44,002 nucleotides of DNA from a virus: the UHGV virus genome UHGV-1377823; one strand, 5' to 3'. The notes beneath the pieces were generated by a model. The model saw nothing but the letters and a program-made list of their open reading frames with translations, made no database searches and was not told where the DNA came from. Each line of letters starts with the position of its first letter. Positions within the stretch are counted from its first letter, which is position 1. Of the stretch, positions 24,190 to 40,534 are shown one piece after another. Both the position numbers and the translations under genes were made by a program.

Positions 24190-25926
24190 ATGGCTTTCAG
24201 TTGGAGTGAGCTTAACTACCCGGCTGGCACAACCTCTGTACCCGTAGATATAGAGTACCTTGACAAGTCCTATATTTACGTGTACCTGGACGGTGTACTT
24301 ACTACGGACTACACCTGGAGCAGTGATACTGTTATTCAGTTTAACACTGCCCTGGCTGCTGCTACGGATGTACTGCTTGTACGCCGCACAGATAAAGAGT
24401 TCTTGTACATTATGTTCGCAGAGGGCGCTGCCTTTATCCGGGAGAACATTGATACTCAGAACAAGCAGTTCCTGCATCTTGCTCAGGAACTAACCGAGGG
24501 GCGCTCTATTGAGGGCTTCTACGGGGACTTGAGCATGAACGGGTTCCGCATCACCAATTTAGGCGCTGGGGTTAACCCTGGGGATGCAGTTAACAAGGGG
24601 CAGTTGGACGTAGTGGACCAGCGCGTAGTGAACCTGGAGCAGGCGTTTATTCAGGACACTACGAGTTATCCTTGGTACACTATTACTTCTACTGTAACAG
24701 ATACCCTGGACCCACCTTTCAACTTCACTAAAGCTGCGCTGTACATTAACGGCGTATGCCAGGTGCCTGGGTATAGTTATGAGGTTGTATCGAACCAGAT
24801 ACTACTGGCTGACCCTGTACCTATTGGCACCTTAATCTTCGCTCGTCTAGGTGAGGATGTTGGTACCGGGGACGAGTACGCTACGGCAGAGCAGTTAGCT
24901 GCTGCTATCAGTGCCGCCGAACTAGCGCACGTGCAGTTACAGAACAACATTGACCTAAAGCTAGACGCTACAGCTAACGCAGTATCAGCTACTAAGTTGC
25001 AGACTGCACGTACAGTGCAGACTAATTTAGCCAGTACTAGCCCATCTAGTTTCGACGGTACAGCTAATATCTCCCCCGGTGTTACAGGGATTCTGCCAAC
25101 CACTAACGGGGGCACGGGTAATGTCAACGGGACTGTAGCGGCATTAACTACTGCGCGTACCTTTCAGACAAACCTTGCCAGTACTAGCTCAGCTAGCTTT
25201 GATGGTTCCGCTAACGTAACTCCAGGGGTGACGGGTACTCTACCTATTGCTAACGGGGGCACAGGTAATACTACTGGGTTAGCTGCTACTGCTACGGCTC
25301 TCGCCACGGCCAGGACCTTCCAGACTAACTTAGCCAGCACTGCAAGCGCTAGCTTCAACGGCACTGCTAACGTTACGCCCGGCGTTACTGGTACACTGCC
25401 GTTGAGTAATGGGGGTACAGGGGGTACTACAGCAGTCTCTGCGCGTGATTCTCTAGGCGCTGCTGCATCTGGTAGTAACTCTGATATCACGGCCTTGACC
25501 GCGCTCACAGGCGGTATTACGGGGCTTGTTGGGGGTACTGCTGCTGCTGCTGGTGTAGTTGGGCAGATTCTGGAAGCCGTCAGCGGCTCCGCTGTAGCGT
25601 TAACTTCCGGAACCACTACTAACCTGACTAGCTTAGCGCTGCCTGCGGGTGAGTGGTTGGTTATGGGTAGCATCCGTATTGACAGTTCCGGGGGGAGTAT
25701 CACATCCCGAACCTTAGCTATTAATGACGTGTCCGCTACTACCCCAAGCGCTTGGTATCATGACTATATATCCCAAGCCAACACCGGGGCGGGGGTTAAC
25801 GTTTATGTCGTACCCCTTAGGTACTTTAGCTTGACAGGCACTACTACTCTCTACGCGGTAGCTAACGTCGAAGGTTCAGGGACTCTGACCGGACGGGGAT
25901 ACATTAGAGCGATACGTATACGTTAA
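24190..25926 (+). CDS. tail fibre protein with T7 gp17-like N-terminal tail-attachment domain
   Basis: N-terminal ~150 aa resemble T7 gp17 (DIEYLDKSYIYVYLDGVL...LLVRRTDKEF...). Central region has three tandem ~46-aa repeats; C-terminal domain is Gly/Thr-rich. Confidence 0.85.
   Translation: MAFSWSELNYPAGTTSVPVDIEYLDKSYIYVYLDGVLTTDYTWSSDTVIQFNTALAAATDVLLVRRTDKEFLYIMFAEGAAFIRENIDTQNKQFLHLAQELTEGRSIEGFYGDLSMNGFRITNLGAGVNPGDAVNKGQLDVVDQRVVNLEQAFIQDTTSYPWYTITSTVTDTLDPPFNFTKAALYINGVCQVPGYSYEVVSNQILLADPVPIGTLIFARLGEDVGTGDEYATAEQLAAAISAAELAHVQLQNNIDLKLDATANAVSATKLQTARTVQTNLASTSPSSFDGTANISPGVTGILPTTNGGTGNVNGTVAALTTARTFQTNLASTSSASFDGSANVTPGVTGTLPIANGGTGNTTGLAATATALATARTFQTNLASTASASFNGTANVTPGVTGTLPLSNGGTGGTTAVSARDSLGAAASGSNSDITALTALTGGITGLVGGTAAAAGVVGQILEAVSGSAVALTSGTTTNLTSLALPAGEWLVMGSIRIDSSGGSITSRTLAINDVSATTPSAWYHDYISQANTGAGVNVYVVPLRYFSLTGTTTLYAVANVEGSGTLTGRGYIRAIRIR
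25004..25430 (+). repeat. three tandem ~140-145 nt coding repeats inside tail fibre gene
   Basis: Repeat units start at 25004, 25149 and 25306 (TARTxQTNLASTSxxSFDGxANxxPGVTGxLPxxNGGTGN). Protein identity is ~80% but DNA identity is lower, through synonymous changes. They produce the spurious minus-strand ORF 25164-25703. Confidence 0.7.
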
Positions 25927-29460: not shown

Positions 29461-31170
29461 ATGTCTTTAGTAGACTTAACAGTAGCACGGCACCCGGTTG
29501 TAGATACGGGTAGCCAGACGATTACTACGATAGCTGCCTTGCGCACTACCGAGCCTAGCTCAGATAGGCAACGTGTTACGCTTCTGGAGCATACCGCAGG
29601 AACCCGTAAAGGTGGTGGCCAGTTCCGCGCCGTTTTGGCAGGTTCGTCATACACCGACAATAATGGCACCGTCATTAAAACGCCAGGCGGCGCGGCATGG
29701 GTTCGTATAAACGCCGATATCGTGAACCCGTTGATGTTTGGAGCTTTAGGCGATGGAGCGACAAATGACAGTGTTGCACTTAACCGTGCGGGTACATATG
29801 CTACTCGTGTGATTGACCTGTTAGGGCTTACATATGGCGTAGGATCAACATGGTATTTAGAAGCTACAACCCCAAAAGTTGTTAAAAATGGGGGTTTAAA
29901 ATATCTAACAGCTCTGGGCACGGGGCCAATGATGCGTTATAAAAACGCGGCCCATGAGATGTATAATGTGGATTTTGACGGGGGCGGCAGCACTACATCC
30001 ACAGGGCTTATCTGGGAGGGTGGGAACGCCCTTCGCGGGGTTCGCGGCGGTGTAGTTCAGGACTGTAGTTTCCGCTACACAGGTGGTTCGGGTATTGCCG
30101 TTTCTTATGACGGAGCTAATAATACCGTTGGTTCCTTTGGTGTGATTAAAAGAGTTACCTTCAATCATTGTGGCCTTACTGGCGTGGGTAATGGCCGTTG
30201 TTGCCTTCTGCTGGACGGTGTTAGTAACTTCACGGTCTCGGACATTGTGGGTATAGACTGCAACTGGGGTATTTATGTCCGCAACGACTTTAATAATCCT
30301 TTATTGTCTCGTGCGACAAACAATACAATTTCCCGTGTCAATCTTAAAGGGCAGGGACTGAACAGCACGGCATATCCAGATGCTCAGGGTATTTCCTGTT
30401 CTTATCAGGATAACCTACAAATTACTGATGTTACAGTGGATGGCTTCCCAGGTAATGGTATTGATATGCAATACTGCGACGCGAGTATAGTCACGAACTG
30501 GAGAGCTACTGCTTGCGGTGATGGTGTCTTTATGGGTGACAGGGCGTGTCGTAGGCACACTATCAGCAATGGCATTGCTATTGACTGTAACCGCGCTATC
30601 CGTCTTATCACCGACGGCGGCTCCTTCATAATGAACTCTGTGGTGCCAGCTCTTGCGCATATTAAAATTACCAACGTTCATGCGTACAATTCCAGACGCC
30701 AGGCTTTTTACCTTGTTAACTCTGGTAGAGCCGCATATGGGTCTTCTATGACTAATGTGCAATTAGATAACTGCTCGGTGGACGGTACAGGGTCTCTCTC
30801 CCTAACCACTCATACGCATGGATTCCATATAGAGGGTGGCGTTAACGTAACGCTTATGAACTGTAACACCTTCAACATTCGGCAACACGGGGTCTATGTC
30901 AAAGATAGTGAGTTTGTCCGTATATTGGGCGGGGCGCACCAAAACGTAGACCAGGTTGGCGCTGGGAACCAGGGTGTTTATGTATCCTCCGATTGTAACC
31001 GCGTTAGCGTCTCTGATGTGTCTGTCTACGGTTTCGCTACTGCTGGTGCAGTTACTTTAGCTGGTGGGTCTGGACATTCAGCTAAACATATTCGCTGGCG
31101 TAGTATTGCCAGCGGCGTAACATCAAGTGGGGCTTCCTCCCCTTATCTGTTCGATAACCAGTCGTTCTAA
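29461..31170 (+). CDS. tailspike / capsule depolymerase (pectate-lyase-like right-handed beta-helix)
   Basis: FGALGDGATNDSVAL is typical of the pectate lyase/tailspike beta-helix superfamily. Repeated G-x-N/D beta-helix rungs follow. 569 aa, with no T7 gp17-like N-terminal anchor. Located after the lysis genes at the genome right end. Confidence 0.85.
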   Translation: MSLVDLTVARHPVVDTGSQTITTIAALRTTEPSSDRQRVTLLEHTAGTRKGGGQFRAVLAGSSYTDNNGTVIKTPGGAAWVRINADIVNPLMFGALGDGATNDSVALNRAGTYATRVIDLLGLTYGVGSTWYLEATTPKVVKNGGLKYLTALGTGPMMRYKNAAHEMYNVDFDGGGSTTSTGLIWEGGNALRGVRGGVVQDCSFRYTGGSGIAVSYDGANNTVGSFGVIKRVTFNHCGLTGVGNGRCCLLLDGVSNFTVSDIVGIDCNWGIYVRNDFNNPLLSRATNNTISRVNLKGQGLNSTAYPDAQGISCSYQDNLQITDVTVDGFPGNGIDMQYCDASIVTNWRATACGDGVFMGDRACRRHTISNGIAIDCNRAIRLITDGGSFIMNSVVPALAHIKITNVHAYNSRRQAFYLVNSGRAAYGSSMTNVQLDNCSVDGTGSLSLTTHTHGFHIEGGVNVTLMNCNTFNIRQHGVYVKDSEFVRILGGAHQNVDQVGAGNQGVYVSSDCNRVSVSDVSVYGFATAGAVTLAGGSGHSAKHIRWRSIASGVTSSGASSPYLFDNQSF

Positions 31171-31290
31171 CCAGAGCTTCTAACCAGTCGCTCTAAGGAT
31201 AGCCTTGGGGATAGCTTAGGGAGTGCTAGTAGGGGATGCTGGTGTATACTTGCTCCCTAAAAATATTATACTTACTAATTGGAGATATCT

Positions 31291-31740
31291 ATGAACGTTA
31301 AATATGATACAAACTCCGCCAGCGGTCTGACCTGGTTAACTGGTAGACGCGCTGGTGCTGTAGCAGGAACCCTGAACGCTAAGGGCTACTGGGTTGTGCA
31401 GATGCAAGGCAAGAAGATGCAAGTGCATCGTATTATCTGGGAGATGCTGAATGGGCCTATACCAGATGATAAAGTGATTGACCACATAAACCAGAACCCT
31501 GCTGATAACCGCATTGAGAACCTGCGCCTAGCCAGTGTCAGCGATAACAACTGCAATGCTAGACGTGATAGCCGAGAGTATCCTCGTGGGGTATACTATA
31601 CAGGTTCATGCTGGCGCGGAGAGTTCTGGAAGGATGGCAAGCGCTATATGCGAAAGCACAGCTCATACGAAGTAATCTGCCAGTGGGTTCTCAGTGAACG
31701 CGCTAGGCTTCACGGGGAGTTTATCCCTGAGCAGGTGTAA
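31291..31740 (+). CDS. HNH homing endonuclease (HNH_3 + AP2-like)
   Basis: IDHINQNPADNRIENLRLASVSDNNCNA matches the HNH_3 motif. It is a paralogue of the HNH at 40064-40534. ATG 31291 has a GGAGA SD 5 nt upstream. Embedded in the GATAGC repeat array. Confidence 0.8.
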   Translation: MNVKYDTNSASGLTWLTGRRAGAVAGTLNAKGYWVVQMQGKKMQVHRIIWEMLNGPIPDDKVIDHINQNPADNRIENLRLASVSDNNCNARRDSREYPRGVYYTGSCWRGEFWKDGKRYMRKHSSYEVICQWVLSERARLHGEFIPEQV

Positions 31741-31773
31741 ACCTGTTAGTCAAAAATGATATACTTGTGTCAG

Positions 31774-31864
31774 CCTCACCCTCACCCTCACCGCCCCTCG
31801 TTTCCCCCATAGGGGGTGCCTCAGCCAGAACTATGGCCTGGGTGGGGTGGGGGCCTGGGCCTGT
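31774..31864 (+). repeat. (CCTCAC)x3 - CCCCCATAGGGGG palindrome - G-tract run (GGTGGGGTGGGGGCCTGGGCCTG)
   Basis: Three tandem CCTCAC hexamers at 31774-31791. A perfect 5+3+5 palindrome at 31804-31816. A run of five G-tracts at 31836-31864. The C-rich to G-rich strand switch gives G-quadruplex potential on both strands. Confidence 0.6.
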
Positions 31865-32198
31865 TCAGGGATAGCCTGGGGCCTCTACGAGGCTCTGGGA
31901 GCTTCTCTAAGCGCTTCTACCGGATAGCCTATAGGATTGCATAGGGATAGCCCTGTGATAGCCTTAGCGTGGCTCTGGTTGGCTCTGAGTGATAGCTCTG
32001 AGTAGCTCTGTGTGGTAGCGGAGGTGGGCGCAGGCTTACCTCTTTTCGTCCTCTATGTGTGCCTAGAGATAGCTTAGGGATAGCTGTAGAATCCTCACGT
32101 ACAGGCCGGAGATAGCTATTGGATAGCTCCAGTGTTAGCCGGTAATGGGTATAGCTAGAAGCTAGAGGTTGCATGATAAGGTATGCTGACTGTATGCA

Positions 32199-32227
32199 TT
32201 GACTAGGTATGACCATACTGCTACTAT
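32199..32227 (+). promoter_or_regulatory. candidate sigma70 promoter TTGACT-17-TACTAT
   Basis: -35 TTGACT at 32199-32204, a 17-nt spacer, and -10 TACTAT at 32222-32227, in an AT-rich region 170 nt upstream of the 32397 gene. Confidence 0.4.
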
Positions 32228-32396
32228 TGGTCATAGCTACTGTATATACTGAGTGCATACTGAGTATATAGCTATATAGAGTTGGTCACAGCTAATGGTA
32301 GTTGATGGGGTGTAACCATAGGTCACACCTCTGTAAGTACAGGGAATATAAGGAGTTGTTTGATTGAGTATAAATCAGTTAATAGAGGGTTTAAGT

Positions 32397-33095
32397 ATGA
32401 GTGTTCACAGCTACAGTACAGGTTTCGGTACACAGTCTGTTACGCTGAATGTACAGAGCCTGGTGGATACACTGGATAAATCCGGTTCGAGGCAGCAGCT
32501 GGTACAAACAGCGCTTAAGGCTGCCAGGGCACTGAGTAATGAACTGTACGGTGAAAGGAATATACTGAAGTGCATGCAGCTTGTGCTGGCTGCTATAGAT
32601 ACAGAGCGGTATCGTTCCGGTACAGAGGTTATCGATGCTGTACTGGATGCTGATACCGCGAAGTGGTTCAAAGCGTACCGGGTTACTCCGGCTCTGCAAG
32701 CACTGTTACCTGCTGGAGTATCAGCAGGGCGTTGTAAGGCTGCGGTTAACGCAGTGTTTAAGCTACAGGGCGGTACAGTAGCTGGTAGTAAGGCTGGTAA
32801 CGTTGTAGCTGCTGCGGATGGCTCTTACAGCGTTGATACAGTAGACCTCTGCGTAGAGTTATATGACCGAGGGTTAAGTGCCGAGGATATTCGGTTCATG
32901 CTACAGCATTATGGCTACAGTCTCACCGAGTGGGAGGTACTGGAGATACTTAATCGTGAGTGCGGCTACCTGGAGAAGTTTATCTATATAGGTAACGGAG
33001 AGGTAGTGCACGCTCAGTGCAGTAGCCTGGAAGGTCTGGAGCAGTGGCAGGACGTGGTGGTAGCTGCTGAGCAGCGTAAATGGCGGGGGATGTAA
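32397..33095 (+). CDS. hypothetical protein (232 aa)
   Basis: ATG with an AGAGGG SD 7 nt upstream. The track's 32364 start uses an alternative codon. No recognisable domain. Confidence 0.6.
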   Translation: MSVHSYSTGFGTQSVTLNVQSLVDTLDKSGSRQQLVQTALKAARALSNELYGERNILKCMQLVLAAIDTERYRSGTEVIDAVLDADTAKWFKAYRVTPALQALLPAGVSAGRCKAAVNAVFKLQGGTVAGSKAGNVVAAADGSYSVDTVDLCVELYDRGLSAEDIRFMLQHYGYSLTEWEVLEILNRECGYLEKFIYIGNGEVVHAQCSSLEGLEQWQDVVVAAEQRKWRGM

Positions 33096-37981: not shown

Positions 37982-38821
37982 ATGGATGCCCCCTGGCTAC
38001 AAGCATGTAAGCGCCTGGCTGTGGGGCAAACTGCCAGGTTCAGATGCTGCGGTAGAACTCCTGCTGCCGTGCTTTTTAATAAACCCGATACGTGGCAGAT
38101 GTATTGTCACAGGTGTCACACGTCGCTCAGTGAGCGCAAACAATACGTATCCCTGGTGCAGCCGGAAGTGCTGCCTAGGGTGCTGCCTGCGCCTGCACAG
38201 CTAATACAGATTCACCAGACGAGCGCTGAATTGCAGGCACAGCTTTACGGATTCTTAGTATCTAAGGGCATCATGCCAGAGATGGCTGGTGCAGTTTACT
38301 ATTCAGAGCAACTAAAGAGGTTAGTATGGGATTTACAGAATGGGACTTACCTGGCGAGAGCGCTGCATCAGTATCAACAACCAAAGTGGGTAATGCTGGG
38401 GCAGCCCGCTCAGTATGCTATGGTACAGACCCCCTGGCTGAGCACGCCCAAGACTACGCAGAGCTTGAGCGAATCTTCTGCGCAGTCTACGCAGACAGCG
38501 TCGAGCGCCGTAGTACTGACCGAGGACTGGTTGAGCGCCCTAAAAGTCTCCTGGGTAGCTGGGAAATACTCTTCGGAACCAGTTACGGCGGTAGCCTTAC
38601 TTGGGACCAGGTTGTCGCTGCCTCTAAAAGCGAAGCTGATTCAGCTTGGTAAGTCAGTGCTGCTGATGCTGGACGGAGACAGCGCCGGGTACACCGGGCG
38701 GGACACTATACAGCGCACCTTGAAACCGTTCTTGCAGACACGCAGTTACACAATCGACGGGTTAGACCCGAAGGACATGACCTGCCAACAAATCCTGGAG
38801 GGTTTAAATTGGATTACTTAA
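37982..38821 (+). CDS. DNA primase (zinc-ribbon + TOPRIM)
   Basis: N-terminal zinc-binding CC....C..C.H cluster and a TOPRIM DxD motif, MLDGDSAGYTGRD. Encoded separately from the helicase, as in phiKMV. Confidence 0.85.
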   Translation: MDAPWLQACKRLAVGQTARFRCCGRTPAAVLFNKPDTWQMYCHRCHTSLSERKQYVSLVQPEVLPRVLPAPAQLIQIHQTSAELQAQLYGFLVSKGIMPEMAGAVYYSEQLKRLVWDLQNGTYLARALHQYQQPKWVMLGQPAQYAMVQTPWLSTPKTTQSLSESSAQSTQTASSAVVLTEDWLSALKVSWVAGKYSSEPVTAVALLGTRLSLPLKAKLIQLGKSVLLMLDGDSAGYTGRDTIQRTLKPFLQTRSYTIDGLDPKDMTCQQILEGLNWIT

Positions 38822-40080
38822 TCTGCCGCGCTATGTGTGAGCGCAAGGTCTATGACAGGCTGCACGACCAGATACCAAAATCCATGCTTGCGCCCGATAC
38901 TGTAGCTCTTCTGGGTTGGATTCAACTCTACTATGCAACCTACACTGACAGCAACGCTGTGCAGTGGGACGCTATGCAGACGCTCCTTGGGATGCGCGGG
39001 CAGCATCTACAGAAAGAGCAAATGGATATCCTGAAGCACATGCTCAAGCAGGTGCAGCAGGTTCCTGAAGAAGCAGTAGCCGGGGTAGTGCGTACTCTGA
39101 ATGAGATGGCCTACTCCGGCGAGATGGCGTCGCTGGTGCAGCAGTACCAGGACGGTGCAGAGATAGACTTTATCGCAGAGGCCAAGCAGTTAGAGCGCAA
39201 GTACAGCAGCGTAGCGACAGCGCAGGACTCTTTACTTAACTGGGAAGATGGGGGTGTAGATGATATACTTGCAGCGACTGACGAAAGTGGTGGCCTTAAG
39301 CTTAATGTGTTTCCCGAGCTTGCTGATAATGTTCGTGGCTTACGTGGGGGTGATTGTGTCGCTGTTGCTGCCCCTGTCGATGCAGGAAAGACTAGCTTGC
39401 TGGCTGCAACGGTTGTGGGACTTACCGAACAACTTGTTAATCAAGATGCTTACGCAGATAGACCGGTTCTATGGCTCGTGAACGAATCCCTGGCAAAGCG
39501 TACTGTACCGCGCATCTACCAGGCAGCTACCGGGCTGACCCTGCATGAGATTGTAGAGCAGCACAAGCAAGGTAAGTTCGCAGAGAAGTACCTGGCTAAG
39601 GTGGGCAGCTGGGACCGCATCAGAGTTAAGGATGCGCACAGCATCACTATGCCTCAGATAGCTACGCTAATGGAGGAGATGCGCCCGGCTGTGCTGGTTG
39701 TGGATATGGTTTCAAATATACGGGGCGGCACTCTGGAGTCTGAGCATCAGAACCTGGAAGCCAAGTGGCAGGAGCTGCGCGTGCTGGGCTGTGAGTACGA
39801 TTGCATCATCATTGGCACCATGCAGCTATCAGTCGAGGGTTATGATATGCTGTACCCGCCGCTGACAGCGATGAAGCAGAGCAAGATCGGTGTACAGGGG
39901 GCGCTGGACCTGTGCATTATGATGGGCAGGTTAGACCCTAGCACAAGGCCGGACATGCTGAACATCCGGGGGATATCCACCCCGAAATGTAAGTTGGCTA
40001 AATCCGGCAGTCCTAGTTATTTGCAATTTCAAGTGGAGTTTGACGGTGGTAGATGTCAATTTAATGCAGGCCTTGTATAA
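38809..40080 (+). CDS. replicative DNA helicase (DnaB/gp4 helicase-domain family)
   Basis: Walker A motif AAPVDAGKTSL and a RecA-like core. TTG 38809 has a GGAGGG SD 7 nt upstream; ATG 38833 is an alternative start. Confidence 0.88.
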   Translation: MDYLICRAMCERKVYDRLHDQIPKSMLAPDTVALLGWIQLYYATYTDSNAVQWDAMQTLLGMRGQHLQKEQMDILKHMLKQVQQVPEEAVAGVVRTLNEMAYSGEMASLVQQYQDGAEIDFIAEAKQLERKYSSVATAQDSLLNWEDGGVDDILAATDESGGLKLNVFPELADNVRGLRGGDCVAVAAPVDAGKTSLLAATVVGLTEQLVNQDAYADRPVLWLVNESLAKRTVPRIYQAATGLTLHEIVEQHKQGKFAEKYLAKVGSWDRIRVKDAHSITMPQIATLMEEMRPAVLVVDMVSNIRGGTLESEHQNLEAKWQELRVLGCEYDCIIIGTMQLSVEGYDMLYPPLTAMKQSKIGVQGALDLCIMMGRLDPSTRPDMLNIRGISTPKCKLAKSGSPSYLQFQVEFDGGRCQFNAGLV

Positions 40081-40534
40081 CGGTTACACAGTCCGCTCGG
40101 ATGGTGTAGTCCTGAACCCGAAGGGGAAACAGGTGGGGTGGCAGCGTGATGATGGTTATGTGTTTGTGTTCATCAAGAAAGAACGCTGGCGTTTGCATAG
40201 GCTTATGTGGCACACGCTAGTGCAGCCGTTGGAGGAGGATACCGTAATCGACCACGCGGACGGCAACCCCGCTAACAACAATCTCAGTAACCTGCGGGCG
40301 TGCTCTCGCAGTGAGAATCAATACAATCGTAGGGCCAAGAAGGGTAACACTGCGGGAGGTTTAAAGGGTGTATACCGCAGGGATACCAAGAGCGGCCCGC
40401 GTTACGTAGCAAGCTACACAAATAAAGGGGCGGTGATTTATATCGGCACATACCGCACCCCAGAGGAAGCTCATGCGGCGTACCGCTCAGCAACGGCGGC
40501 TATGCACGGGGAGTTCTCAGATTTAAATAGGTAA
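40064..40534 (+). CDS. HNH homing endonuclease (HNH_3 + AP2-like)
   Basis: IDHADGNPANNNLSNLRACSRSENQYN is an HNH_3 motif. It is a paralogue of the HNH at 31291-31740. Its start overlaps the helicase 3' end. Confidence 0.8.
   Translation: MQALYNGYTVRSDGVVLNPKGKQVGWQRDDGYVFVFIKKERWRLHRLMWHTLVQPLEEDTVIDHADGNPANNNLSNLRACSRSENQYNRRAKKGNTAGGLKGVYRRDTKSGPRYVASYTNKGAVIYIGTYRTPEEAHAAYRSATAAMHGEFSDLNR

What the first reader, a model, noticed from the sequence alone, without database searches (positions are those of the whole stretch)
31243..31769. HNH endonuclease gene inserted into the repeat array, flanked by a 15-bp direct repeat
The HNH ORF (31291-31740) is bracketed by AAAAATATTATACTT (31259-31273) and AAAAATGATATACTT (31752-31766), which agree at 13 of 15 positions. 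TATACTTG also occurs again on each side (31246 and 31759). The GATAGC array continues on both sides of the gene. This looks like a free-standing homing endonuclease together with its local regulatory element that has landed inside the repeat region, duplicating or carrying a short flanking sequence. Alternatively the 15-mer is a promoter-like or RNase-site element present in two copies.
Basis: seen in the sequence. Interest (0 to 1): 0.65.

Follow-up and report, generated by a model that had tools for sequence, protein, structure and literature searches.

The report
Homing endonuclease gene at phage genome end
A small selfish endonuclease gene sits just before the terminal repeat of a T7-like phage genome, bracketed by two copies of a conserved ~42-base element that HNH-less relatives almost always carry once; the gene is already annotated at this spot in other phages, so the finding is real but fairly ordinary.

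Summary
AAAAATATTATACTT (31259-31273) and AAAAATGATATACTT (31752-31766) bracket a 149-aa HNH_3 ORF (31291-31740). They are the 3' parts of a longer repeat: 24/33 identical, and about 42 nt when relatives are aligned.

The window is a circularly assembled Koutsourovirus-like genome (Autographiviridae, Slopekvirinae). The HNH gene lies between the tailspike gene and the direct terminal repeat (DTR, ~31779-32033). The GATAGC repeats are the short repeats that surround the concatemer junction, as in T7.

Seven HNH-less Koutsourovirus junctions and nine of ten HNH-less Drulisvirus junctions carry one copy of the element ("E"), 12-13 nt before the DTR. The exception, L138, has an HNH-free tandem duplication. 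All 16 complete HNH+ loci carry exactly two copies.

The left copy matches the allele of relatives sharing that left flank. The right copy contains the HNH stop codon and restores the E-spacer-DTR arrangement.

About 70-74% identical HNH genes occupy the same site in 27 Klebsiella Drulisvirus records, where they are annotated only as "HNH endonuclease". The gene is under purifying selection (dN/dS 0.05-0.1).

Best reading: an old, sporadically distributed free-standing homing endonuclease cassette. E's function (packaging or junction signal versus promoter) is inferred, not shown. It is a new member of a known kind, of moderate to low interest.

The parts
29461..31170 (+). Tailspike gene, the last structural gene. 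It forms the left context of the site.
   Evidence: 569-aa ORF. Its product hits Phage_tail_beta and Beta_helix in the identical Logan contig L151. The same position is annotated as tailspike in phiKDA1.
31155..31240 (+). Short repeats before the junction: 13-bp TAACCAGTCGYTC x3 (31155-31203) and GATAGC copies at 31198 and 31210. These resemble the T7 short repeats left of the terminal repeat.
   Evidence: (family D14). HNH-less relatives have comparable short repeats at the same place.
31232..31273 (+). E_L, the left copy of the conserved pre-DTR element (GGGGATGCTG-GTGTATACTTG-CTCCCT-AAAAATATTATACTT).
   Evidence: Regex hit at 31242 with 0 mismatches. The 32-nt core is identical to the single copy of SDFMU_Pec (L001 262), and the 69 nt from 31207 to 31275 are ~90% identical to Entb_48.
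31274..31290 (+). HNH leader with a GGAG ribosome-binding site (31281-31284). The insertion junction lies 2 nt after E_L (TATACTTAC|TAATTGGAG...).
   Evidence: Comparison with Entb_48 and phiKDA1, where TATACTTAC is followed by GCGAG...+DTR. The leader is 94% identical in L148/L149.
31291..31740 (+). HNH_3 free-standing homing-endonuclease gene (149 aa). The last 4 codons and the TAA stop lie inside E_R.
   Evidence: Pfam HNH_3 E=1e-19. H46, D64, H65, N73, N77, N86 and N89 are invariant in 18 homologues. dN/dS is 0.055-0.107. The AF2 model has pLDDT 87.5, with best PDB fold I-HmuI and an AP2-like C-terminus.
31725..31766 (+). E_R, the right copy of the pre-DTR element (CCTGAGCAG-GTGTAAACCTG-TTAGTC-AAAAATGATATACTT).
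   Evidence: Regex hit at 31735. It is 32/32 identical to E_R of L148/L149 and to the single copy of HNH-less L143, and has 1 mismatch to KKP 3828.
31767..31778 (+). 12-nt spacer (GTGTCAGCCTCA) between E_R and the start of the DTR.
   Evidence: The spacing of 12-13 nt is constant across the 32 junction sequences tabulated.
31779..32033 (+). Direct terminal repeat, present as a single collapsed copy in this circular assembly. It holds CCTCACC repeats, the palindrome CCCCCATAGGGGG (31804-31816) and five GATAGC copies.
   Evidence: Aligns at 84% to the annotated 267-bp DTR of phiKDA1 over its full length. The start is placed by the 25-nt register shared with the annotated KP34 and phiKMV DTR starts and the T7 terminal repeat start (39778, from my own knowledge).
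32034..32330 (+). Region after the DTR. It has the conserved GCTTACCTCTTTT motif at the DTR right boundary, four more GATAGC copies and sigma-70-like early promoters (for example TTGACT-17-TACTAT at 32199-32227).

Best explanation
**What it is.** The region is the right end, or concatemer junction, of a Koutsourovirus-like phage (Slopekvirinae). Relatives have a conserved ~42-nt element E (GGGGnGCAnGTnTAWAYYTG-N6-AAAnnTnnTAnACT) 12-13 nt before the first base of the direct terminal repeat. In this genome a cassette lies 2 nt after the left copy (E_L). The cassette consists of a leader, a 149-aa I-HmuI-like HNH endonuclease with an AP2-like DNA-binding tail, a second allele of E (E_R) and its own spacer. 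The layout E-spacer-DTR is therefore rebuilt on the right side of the gene, and the HNH reading frame ends inside E_R.

**How it probably behaves (inferred).** The protein is a homing endonuclease. It nicks or cuts HNH-less junction alleles during mixed infection. Repair then copies the cassette, using E_L as a short portable left homology arm, which would be useful because tailspike genes differ between phages. E_R plus the DTR would serve as the right arm. Recombination between the two E copies can delete the cassette again. This would explain the sporadic distribution and the mosaic E alleles.

**What E probably does (inferred, weaker).** E itself is most likely a cis-acting signal for concatemer-junction processing or packaging that must sit next to the DTR left boundary. 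That would explain why the cassette carries a replacement copy.

**Shown versus inferred.** Shown: the anatomy, the presence/absence polymorphism, the junctions, the conservation and the purifying selection. Inferred: cleavage activity, the target, the homing mechanism and the function of E.
For: **Copy number tracks the HNH.** Empty and filled alleles are seen. The systematic scan (extended in 65) gives exactly 2 E copies in all 16 complete HNH+ loci (the window, identical to L151, L004-L006, L011-L022) and in L148/L149. Sixteen of the 17 HNH-less junctions have 1 copy.

**Constant geometry.** The E-to-DTR spacing is constant across the 32 junction sequences from two genera plus a third lineage.

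**The same site is used in other genera.**
- 27 Drulisvirus records have a 70-74% identical HNH.
- Their alignments run from E_L to E_R or the DTR start.
- The DTRs are annotated in KpV71, KP34 and phiKDA1.

**The two copies are different alleles.**
- L148/L149 have a phiKDA1-type tailspike end and E_L (94-99% identical to phiKDA1).
- Their HNH is 91.4% identical to the window's at the nucleotide level.
- Their E_R is 32/32 identical to the window's, and the early region of L148 is ~91% identical.
- E_R is more conserved than the HNH gene's synonymous sites (dS 0.42).

**The protein looks functional.**
- Pfam HNH_3 hit and invariant catalytic residues.
- dN/dS of 0.055-0.107.
- I-HmuI is the top PDB fold, and the C-terminus resembles AP2 domains.

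**Other points.**
- The repeat exceeds chance.
- E is not the known KP34 RNA polymerase promoter (PMC6834552).
- The pre-DTR 27 nt of phiKMV match E_R plus spacer at 16/27 in a fixed register (p about 1.6e-4).
- The cut-25 nt-CCCCC(A/G)TAGG register is shared with T7 and phiKMV.
- Together these last two points tie E to end formation.
Against: - No cleavage data exist, and the target is unknown.
- The window's E_R plus spacer is identical to the single copy in HNH-less L143. So E_R is not an HNH-specific 'immune' allele in this genus. L145 shows an HNH followed by the other E and spacer type.
- In window versus L148, the HNH, E_R, DTR and early region all diverge by about 10%. This fits long vertical co-inheritance with tailspike-module swapping just as well as active homing.
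- E_L remains well conserved even though it is uncoupled from the DTR. This suggests E has a function that does not depend on DTR adjacency, such as a promoter for the HNH, or that recombination is frequent.
- No stable conserved hairpin was found, and there is only one covarying pair.
- The packaging role rests on position and conservation only. The analogy to T7 concatemer processing comes from my own knowledge and was not tested here.
Confidence: 0.72

Rival explanations
1. The repeated element is a promoter. This would be a host sigma-70 extended -10 type promoter, or an unrecognised promoter for the phage RNA polymerase. E_L would drive the HNH, and E_R (or the single E) would drive transcription across the concatemer junction. 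Two copies would then exist because each transcription unit needs one. This is compatible with the HNH being mobile; it is a rival only for what E does.
For: - Block B reads T-n-n-TA(T/G)ACT, with the -10 key positions (A-11, T-7) invariant in 39 distinct copies.
- TGn precedes it in the window E_R, phiKDA1, KKP 3828 and some Drulisvirus alleles.
- The geometry is right for E_L: TATACT, about 7 nt, then a 12-nt leader with GGAG, then ATG.
- E_L stays conserved without DTR adjacency.
- The T7 concatemer junction has been reported to act as an extended -10 E. coli promoter (bioRxiv 10.64898/2026.02.12.705533).
Against: - There is no -35 match, and the consensus scan does not call it.
- The G of TGn is not conserved: most Drulisvirus alleles have TAT or TTA.
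- Conserved block A (GTnTAWAYYTG) does not resemble TTGACA.
- E is unrelated to the mapped KP34 RNA polymerase promoters.
- On the injected linear genome it would transcribe only ~250 bp and run off the right end.
- The passages read from the ONT-cappable-seq study of the phiKMV-like phage LUZ19 describe no forward-strand start site before the right end (PMC10914365).
Confidence: 0.25
2. The HNH gene with its two E copies is an ancestral, vertically inherited feature of Slopekvirinae. It has been lost many times by recombination between E_L and E_R, and is no longer, or never was, actively homing.
For: - The same architecture appears in three lineages with saturated synonymous divergence (dS ~2 where it could be estimated).
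- In window versus L148, the HNH, DTR and early region diverge about equally (~90-91%).
- The single copies of SDFMU_Pec and L144 combine an E_L-type body with an E_R-type spacer. This is what an E_L x E_R deletion would leave.
Against: - A frequency of ~10% scattered among otherwise close relatives would require very many independent losses.
- Strong purifying selection on a gene of no benefit to the phage is best explained by selection for mobility.
- In Drulisvirus the E_R alleles were not seen as single copies in any of the 10 HNH-less junctions.
Confidence: 0.2
3. The HNH is a packaging accessory nuclease that helps terminase cut at the adjacent genome end, like HK97 gp74-type HNH proteins, rather than a selfish element.
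For: The gene lies ~40 nt from the DTR boundary. From my own knowledge, HK97-type packaging HNH genes also sit next to the genome end.
Against: - The gene is absent from ~90% of related phages, including all 5 deposited Koutsourovirus genomes, and these package normally.
- It belongs to Pfam HNH_3 and has an I-HmuI-like fold with an AP2-like domain, which is typical of homing enzymes.
- A second paralogue sits elsewhere in the genome, at 40040-40534.
Confidence: 0.04
4. The flanking repeat is a target-site duplication made by a transposition-like insertion.
For: Direct repeats bracket the inserted gene.
Against: - The copies differ at 9 of 33 positions and are distinct alleles with different relatives.
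- The repeat is ~42 nt long, and the ORF ends inside it.
- No transposase or terminal inverted repeats are present.
- HNH homing does not produce target-site duplications (established knowledge).
- L138 shows that the element can duplicate without any insertion.
Confidence: 0.02

Closest known systems
The 'putative HNH endonuclease' annotated at the right genome end of Klebsiella Drulisvirus phages (NTUH-K2044-K1-1 ORF35, KpV71 gp53, BUCT86 ORF44, BUCT631 ORF49)
   Same: - 70-74% aa identity over the full length.
- Same position between the tailspike gene and the DTR.
- Same E_L-HNH-E_R-spacer-DTR layout.
- The stop codon lies inside E_R.

   Different: - A different genus (Koutsourovirus-like) and a different host group.
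- Different E and spacer alleles.
- The papers that mention these genes only list them in annotation tables and do not describe the flanking duplication.
I-HmuI and related free-standing or intron-encoded HNH homing endonucleases of phages (PDB 1U3E)
   Same: - HNH beta-beta-alpha-metal core with an N-terminal beta-sheet.
- Best structural match in the PDB (probability 1.0).
- Small size and phage context.
- Sporadic distribution.

   Different: - Only 22% identity over 95 aligned columns, with Foldseek E=0.017.
- The C-terminal domain is AP2-like rather than the helix-turn-helix of I-HmuI.
- It is intergenic at a genome terminus rather than intron-encoded.
- Activity is untested.
T7 concatemer-junction architecture (terminal repeat flanked by short repeats, with cis sequences beside the terminal repeat needed for processing and packaging)
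   Same: - A terminal repeat flanked on both sides by arrays of short repeats (GATAGC here, CCTAAAG in T7).
- An identical register of 25 nt from the left end to CCCCCATAGGGGG.
- An AT-rich tract just left of the terminal repeat.

   Different: - The T7 pre-repeat sequence does not align with E.
- The requirement for flanking sequences in T7 is recalled from the literature (Chung and Hinkle 1990) and was not checked here.
- No functional data exist for Slopekvirinae.

Membership tests
HNH (beta-beta-alpha-metal) endonuclease, Pfam HNH_3 | Sequence match to the family profile above the curated cut-off. | tested here: met
   PF13392 scores 70.2 bits against a cut-off of 24.8, E=1.1e-19, residues 45-87.
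HNH (beta-beta-alpha-metal) endonuclease, Pfam HNH_3 | Conserved catalytic His and metal-binding Asn/His residues. | tested here: met
   H46, D64, H65, N73, N77, N86 and N89 are invariant across 18 homologues down to 29% identity. The beta-beta-alpha element is modelled at E62-65, E78-81 and H83-89 with pLDDT around 90.
Free-standing phage homing endonuclease | Presence/absence polymorphism at one locus among otherwise collinear relatives. | tested here: met
   16 complete filled loci (plus L148/L149) versus 17 empty junctions at the same position. About 27 of ~263 GenBank junction records are filled.
Free-standing phage homing endonuclease | The enzyme cleaves or nicks the endonuclease-less allele near the insertion site. 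| not testable with these tools
   This needs purified protein and junction DNA from Entb_48, phiKDA1 or KP34.
Free-standing phage homing endonuclease | The gene and flanking markers are co-inherited (co-conversion), and the gene phylogeny is discordant with the host phage. | tested here: inconclusive
   E_R is 100% linked with the HNH in window and L148/L149, while the tailspike plus E_L differ. However, the DTR and early region show the same ~90% identity, so vertical descent with tailspike swapping is not excluded.
Free-standing phage homing endonuclease | A separate sequence-specific DNA-binding domain. | tested here: inconclusive
   The C-terminal three strands plus helix (residues 101-141) resemble AP2 domains (7ET4 probability 0.92, but E=0.5). 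Pfam AP2 is not detected.
Transposon-type target-site duplication | Short, initially identical direct repeats generated from one target copy. | tested here: not met
   The copies match at 24/33 and belong to different allele lineages, each with its own closest relatives.
KP34-type phage RNA polymerase promoter | Match to T(A/G)ATGTTACAGGAGTA, or to the weak promoter mapped in KP34. | tested here: not met
   E shares no similarity with it. The window has no match better than 2-3 mismatches elsewhere.
Sigma-70 promoter | -35 and -10 hexamers with 16-18 nt spacing, or a TGn extended -10. | tested here: inconclusive
   A -10-like TA(T/G)ACT is invariant and TGn is present in some alleles only. There is no -35, and the consensus scan does not call it.

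The most novel reading that the evidence does not exclude
E is an essential cis signal for cutting or processing the left boundary of the terminal repeat, conserved across phiKMV-like phages. The HNH cassette has evolved to exploit it in three ways. It inserts in the 12-nt spacer. It brings a functional replacement copy of the signal, so the host phage still packages. It keeps the displaced copy as a universal ~45-bp homology arm, which lets it home into phages whose neighbouring tailspike genes are unrelated. That would be a homing endonuclease built around a packaging signal at a genome terminus.
Probability: 0.2. Interest if true: 0.55.

Novelty: new member of a known kind. Interest (0 to 1): 0.35.

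Why it matters
As it stands, this is one more free-standing HNH homing endonuclease in a T7-like phage. It is the first complete Koutsourovirus-type genome in the collections searched to carry the gene already annotated at this site in Klebsiella Drulisvirus phages.

Two by-products are of modest use:

1. **A conserved junction element.** The analysis defines a ~42-nt element at a fixed 12-13 nt from the left DTR boundary in Slopekvirinae, with a weaker counterpart in phiKMV. This is a concrete candidate for the still undefined packaging or concatemer-processing signal of this therapeutically important phage group, which includes the KP34-like Klebsiella phages. It is directly testable by mutagenesis.

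2. **A guide for phage engineering.** The cassette shows that about 0.5 kb can be inserted between this element and the DTR if the element is re-supplied. E also marks the right-hand recombination boundary of the exchangeable tailspike module. Both points are relevant to engineering host range.

Tried and rejected
- **15-mer significance.** Testing the 15-mer alone gave a non-significant result. I replaced it with a test of the 33-mer.
- **KP34 RNA polymerase promoter.** I read the mapping paper and searched the window. E is unrelated.
- **Sigma-70 and terminator scan.** The scan of 31000-32500 calls neither a promoter nor a terminator at the element.
- **Conserved hairpin.** RNAalifold on 18 distinct copies found only a 5-bp GTnTA/TAnAC inverted repeat with one covarying pair, at -1.2 kcal/mol. 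I rejected this as a stable structure.
- **Degenerate DTR-start pattern in IMG/VR.** The pattern was too loose, and most of the 120 loci were unrelated. I filtered them afterwards by BLAST and by an anchor motif.
- **Specific E pattern in the collections.** Searching IMG/VR, the metagenomes and the GTDB genomes returned only four matching loci: the already-held phiKDA1 copy L026 plus three new ones, L143, L144 and L145.
- **Literature on T7 pac sites.** The searches returned PacBio noise or unrelated papers. The T7 packaging analogy therefore rests on my own knowledge.
- **Literature on this HNH.** No paper in the library combined Drulisvirus, HNH and homing endonuclease. Papers mentioning the Drulisvirus HNH only list it in annotation tables.
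- **PDB sequence search.** The search with the HNH found nothing. The fold search gave weak but sensible hits.
- **IHF site and class II pause-site similarity.** I considered both by eye and dropped them as unconvincing.
- **Shigella phage Buco.** A GIY-YIG gene lies near the record end. The record does not obviously end at a DTR, so I drew no conclusion.

Full report
**1. The observation**

Reading the sequence confirms the two 15-mers at 31259-31273 (AAAAATATTATACTT) and 31752-31766 (AAAAATGATATACTT). They are the only two matches to AAAAATNNTATACTT in the window.

They bracket an ORF at 31291-31740. It is preceded by GGAG at 31281-31284 and hits Pfam HNH_3 at E=1e-19.

TATACTTG is at 31245 and 31760, one base off the stated positions.

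On its own the 15-mer pair is not statistically remarkable: 9 of 100 shuffles give two matches at <=2 mismatches. The repeat is in fact longer. Positions 31241-31273 and 31734-31766 agree at 24/33. None of 300 simulated genomes reached that score anywhere on either strand.

GATAGC is over-represented in the window, with 49 copies against 30 expected. On the + strand it clusters at 31198 and 31210 and again at 31870-32122.

**2. Where this is in the genome**

The window is a whole phage genome assembled as a circle. The HNH protein and its surroundings are identical to a 44,032-bp Logan contig, ERR1190733_753.

Its closest deposited relatives are the Enterobacter/Salmonella Koutsourovirus phages (Autographiviridae, Slopekvirinae):
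- Entb_48, 88% identity over 86% of a 16-kb query.
- phiKDA1, SDFMU_EhYP, KKP 3828 and SDFMU_Pec, about 85%.

The gene order is terminase, lysis cassette, tailspike (29461-31170), HNH.

Position 1 of the phiKDA1 genome, the start of its annotated 267-bp direct terminal repeat (DTR), aligns to window 31780. The repeat ends at 32033.

The HNH gene is therefore the last gene before the right terminal repeat. The GATAGC copies are the short repeats lying before, inside and after the terminal repeat, an arrangement like the short repeats flanking the T7 terminal repeat. HNH-less relatives have comparable short repeats in the same places.

**3. Empty sites**

Seven Koutsourovirus junctions without the HNH each have exactly one copy, 12-13 nt before the DTR. 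They are phiKDA1, SDFMU_Pec, SDFMU_EhYP, Entb_48, KKP 3828, IMG/VR contig L143 and metagenome contig L144.

For example, SDFMU_Pec reads ggtgtatacttgctccctAAAAATATTATACTTgtgtcagcctcc|ccctcaccc. That is the window's left copy joined to the window's right flank.

Entb_48 shares the window's left flank up to 31275 (90% identity). It then continues ...TATACTTAC gcgagcctat|DTR, where the window continues ...TATACTTAC taattggagatatct ATG. The cassette therefore begins 2 nt after the element, inside the spacer.

**4. The repeat is a conserved ~42-nt element**

I collected 39 distinct copies from Koutsourovirus, Drulisvirus and a third lineage (L017). They give the consensus gggg.GCa.GT.TAtAccTG.acc..AAA.tTatTA.ACT, followed by a 12-13-nt spacer and CCCTCACCC, the start of the DTR. 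I call this element E.

In the loci scanned, E occurs only at this junction:
- Once in 16 of the 17 HNH-less junctions.
- Exactly twice in all 16 complete HNH+ loci and in L148/L149.
- The one exception is IMG/VR contig L138, which has a clean ~50-bp tandem duplication of E plus spacer with no gene between the copies.

**5. The same cassette in other genera**

tblastn finds 27 Klebsiella Drulisvirus records with a 70-74% identical protein. The DNA alignments start at E_L and end at E_R or the DTR start.

In KpV71 the gene ends 33 nt before the annotated long terminal repeat. KP34, which lacks the gene, has a single E that is identical to KpV71's left copy.

In every case the HNH stop codon lies inside the right copy: TAA in GTGTAAACC here, TGA in TATA(C/T)CTGA in Drulisvirus.

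About 263 phage records match the KP34 junction, so roughly one in ten carries the gene. The published papers that mention it only list it as "HNH endonuclease" in annotation tables.

**6. Which copy belongs to what**

Two ENA metagenome contigs, L148 and L149, encode a 95% identical HNH.
- Their left flank and E_L are phiKDA1's tailspike end and phiKDA1's E allele (94-99% identity).
- Their HNH is 91.4% identical to the window's at the nucleotide level.
- Their E_R is 32/32 identical to the window's.
- L148's DTR and early region are ~90-91% identical to the window's.

So E_L travels with the tailspike module, and E_R travels with the HNH and the DTR.

E_R is more conserved than the HNH's synonymous sites (dS=0.42), which indicates constraint on E itself.

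Among Koutsourovirus genomes, two E "bodies" and two spacer types occur in all four combinations. This points to frequent recombination at the site. The SDFMU_Pec/L144 type is what an E_L x E_R deletion would leave behind.

A 239-bp contig, L145, shows an HNH 3' end followed by the other body and spacer type. No single E allele is therefore strictly HNH-specific in this genus. In Drulisvirus, by contrast, the E_R alleles were not seen as single copies in any of the 10 HNH-less junctions.

**7. The protein**

- The catalytic and metal-binding residues (H46, D64, H65, N73, N77, N86, N89) are invariant across 18 homologues.
- dN/dS is 0.055 against L149 and about 0.10 against Drulisvirus homologues.
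- An AlphaFold2 model (pLDDT 87.5) has an N-terminal beta-sheet, a beta-beta-alpha core and a C-terminal three-strand-plus-helix domain.
- The best PDB fold match is the HNH homing endonuclease I-HmuI (1U3E, probability 1.0, E=0.017). The C-terminus resembles AP2 DNA-binding domains (7ET4, probability 0.92). These E-values are weak, but they agree with Pfam.
- A second, 32% identical HNH-AP2 gene lies at 40040-40534.

**8. What E might be**

- It is not the mapped KP34 RNA polymerase promoter, T(A/G)ATGTTACAGGAGTA (PMC6834552).
- A sigma-70 consensus scan does not call it, and it has no -35. Its 3' block does have an invariant -10-like TA(T/G)ACT, preceded by TGn in some alleles only.
- There is no stable conserved hairpin. 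The only feature is a 5-bp GTnTA/TAnAC inverted repeat with one covarying pair.

Position is the strongest clue. The distance to the DTR start is fixed, whereas everything upstream varies.

The DTR start itself is conserved across the family. T7, phiKMV and Slopekvirinae all have exactly 25 nt from the genome end to CCCCC(A/G)TAGG. The 27 nt before the phiKMV DTR match the window's E_R block B plus spacer at 16/27 in that fixed register (binomial p about 1.6e-4).

I therefore favour a cis role in forming the left end or processing the concatemer junction. This is an inference. The T7 precedent, that sequences beside the terminal repeat are needed for processing, comes from my own knowledge and was not verified here.

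The main counter-argument is that E_L stays conserved after losing DTR adjacency. That would fit a promoter for the HNH, or a role as a recombination arm.

**9. Verdict**

This is an old, sporadically distributed, functionally constrained HNH homing-endonuclease cassette. It lies in the spacer between a conserved pre-DTR element and the terminal repeat, and it carries its own copy of that element.

It is not a target-site duplication, and it is not in a repeat array in any meaningful sense.

It is a new member of a known kind, since the same gene is annotated at the same site in Klebsiella phages. The only mildly new point is the conserved junction element and its obligatory re-supply by the cassette. 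Interest is moderate to low.

Noticed in passing
window 40040-40534 (+): A second free-standing HNH gene, 164 aa and 32% identical to the one studied, with a clearer AP2-like tail (GVYRR...YIGTYRTPEEAHAAYRSA). It overlaps the 3' end of the primase/helicase-like ORF 38809-40080.
   Followed up: partly
window 31779-31816; T7 L146 679-716; phiKMV L147 707-741; KP34 L007 995-1032: The left genome end has a register conserved across the family. There are exactly 25 nt from the first base of the terminal repeat to CCCCC(A/G)TAGG(GGG) in T7, phiKMV and Slopekvirinae.
   Followed up: partly
phiKMV L147 680-706 vs window 31752-31778: The 27 nt preceding the phiKMV DTR match the window's E_R block B plus spacer at 16/27 without gaps (binomial p about 1.6e-4). 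The pre-DTR element may therefore extend beyond Slopekvirinae.
   Followed up: partly
window 32026-32046; phiKDA1 L152 260-280; L001 552 and 620; L009 1815 and 1883; L148 847 and 913: A conserved motif, GGGCGCAG|GCTTACCTCTTTT, straddles the right boundary of the DTR. In some relatives it is present twice, ~66 bp apart. Its position is analogous to the T7 concatemer-junction class II pause site.
   Followed up: partly
L138 7050-7160 (IMGVR_UViG contig, Drulisvirus-like): A clean ~50-bp tandem duplication of the pre-DTR element plus spacer with no HNH between the copies. It could be a pre-adapted landing pad or an independent duplication.
   Followed up: partly
window 31155-31203: Three tandem 13-bp units (TAACCAGTCGTTC / TAACCAGAGCTTC / TAACCAGTCGCTC) span the tailspike stop codon and lead into the GATAGC copies.
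   Followed up: no
window 25003-25425 (inside ORF 24190-25926): Three tandem ~147-156-nt repeat units, 66-73% identical, lie within a 578-aa ORF upstream of the terminase gene.
   Followed up: no
Koutsourovirus junctions: L001, L002, L008, L009, L010, L143, L144, L145, window: The element's alleles are mosaics. Two 'bodies' (TATACTTGCTCCCT and TAAACCTGTTAGYY) and two spacers (ACGCGAG.. and GTGTCAGCC..) occur in all four combinations, which implies frequent recombination within ~45 bp.
   Followed up: partly
L153 768-1097 (Shigella phage Buco, Bucovirus, Slopekvirinae): A GIY-YIG endonuclease is the last annotated gene near the end of the record. A different homing-endonuclease family may use a comparable end-proximal site. 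The relation to the DTR was not established.
   Followed up: no
L150 522-1000 (Logan contig SRR22560106_488, 44.6 kb): A 54% identical HNH in a more distant phage is also followed by an E-like sequence (GTACAAAGTTG..TAAAATTGTTATATCC) and a CCCTCCACCC start. The arrangement may therefore be older than Slopekvirinae genera.
   Followed up: no
window 31774-31793: The DTR region begins with three CCTCAC(C) units (CCTCACCCTCACCCTCACC), where the relatives have two. This shifts the element-to-palindrome distance by 6-7 nt relative to phiKDA1.
   Followed up: no
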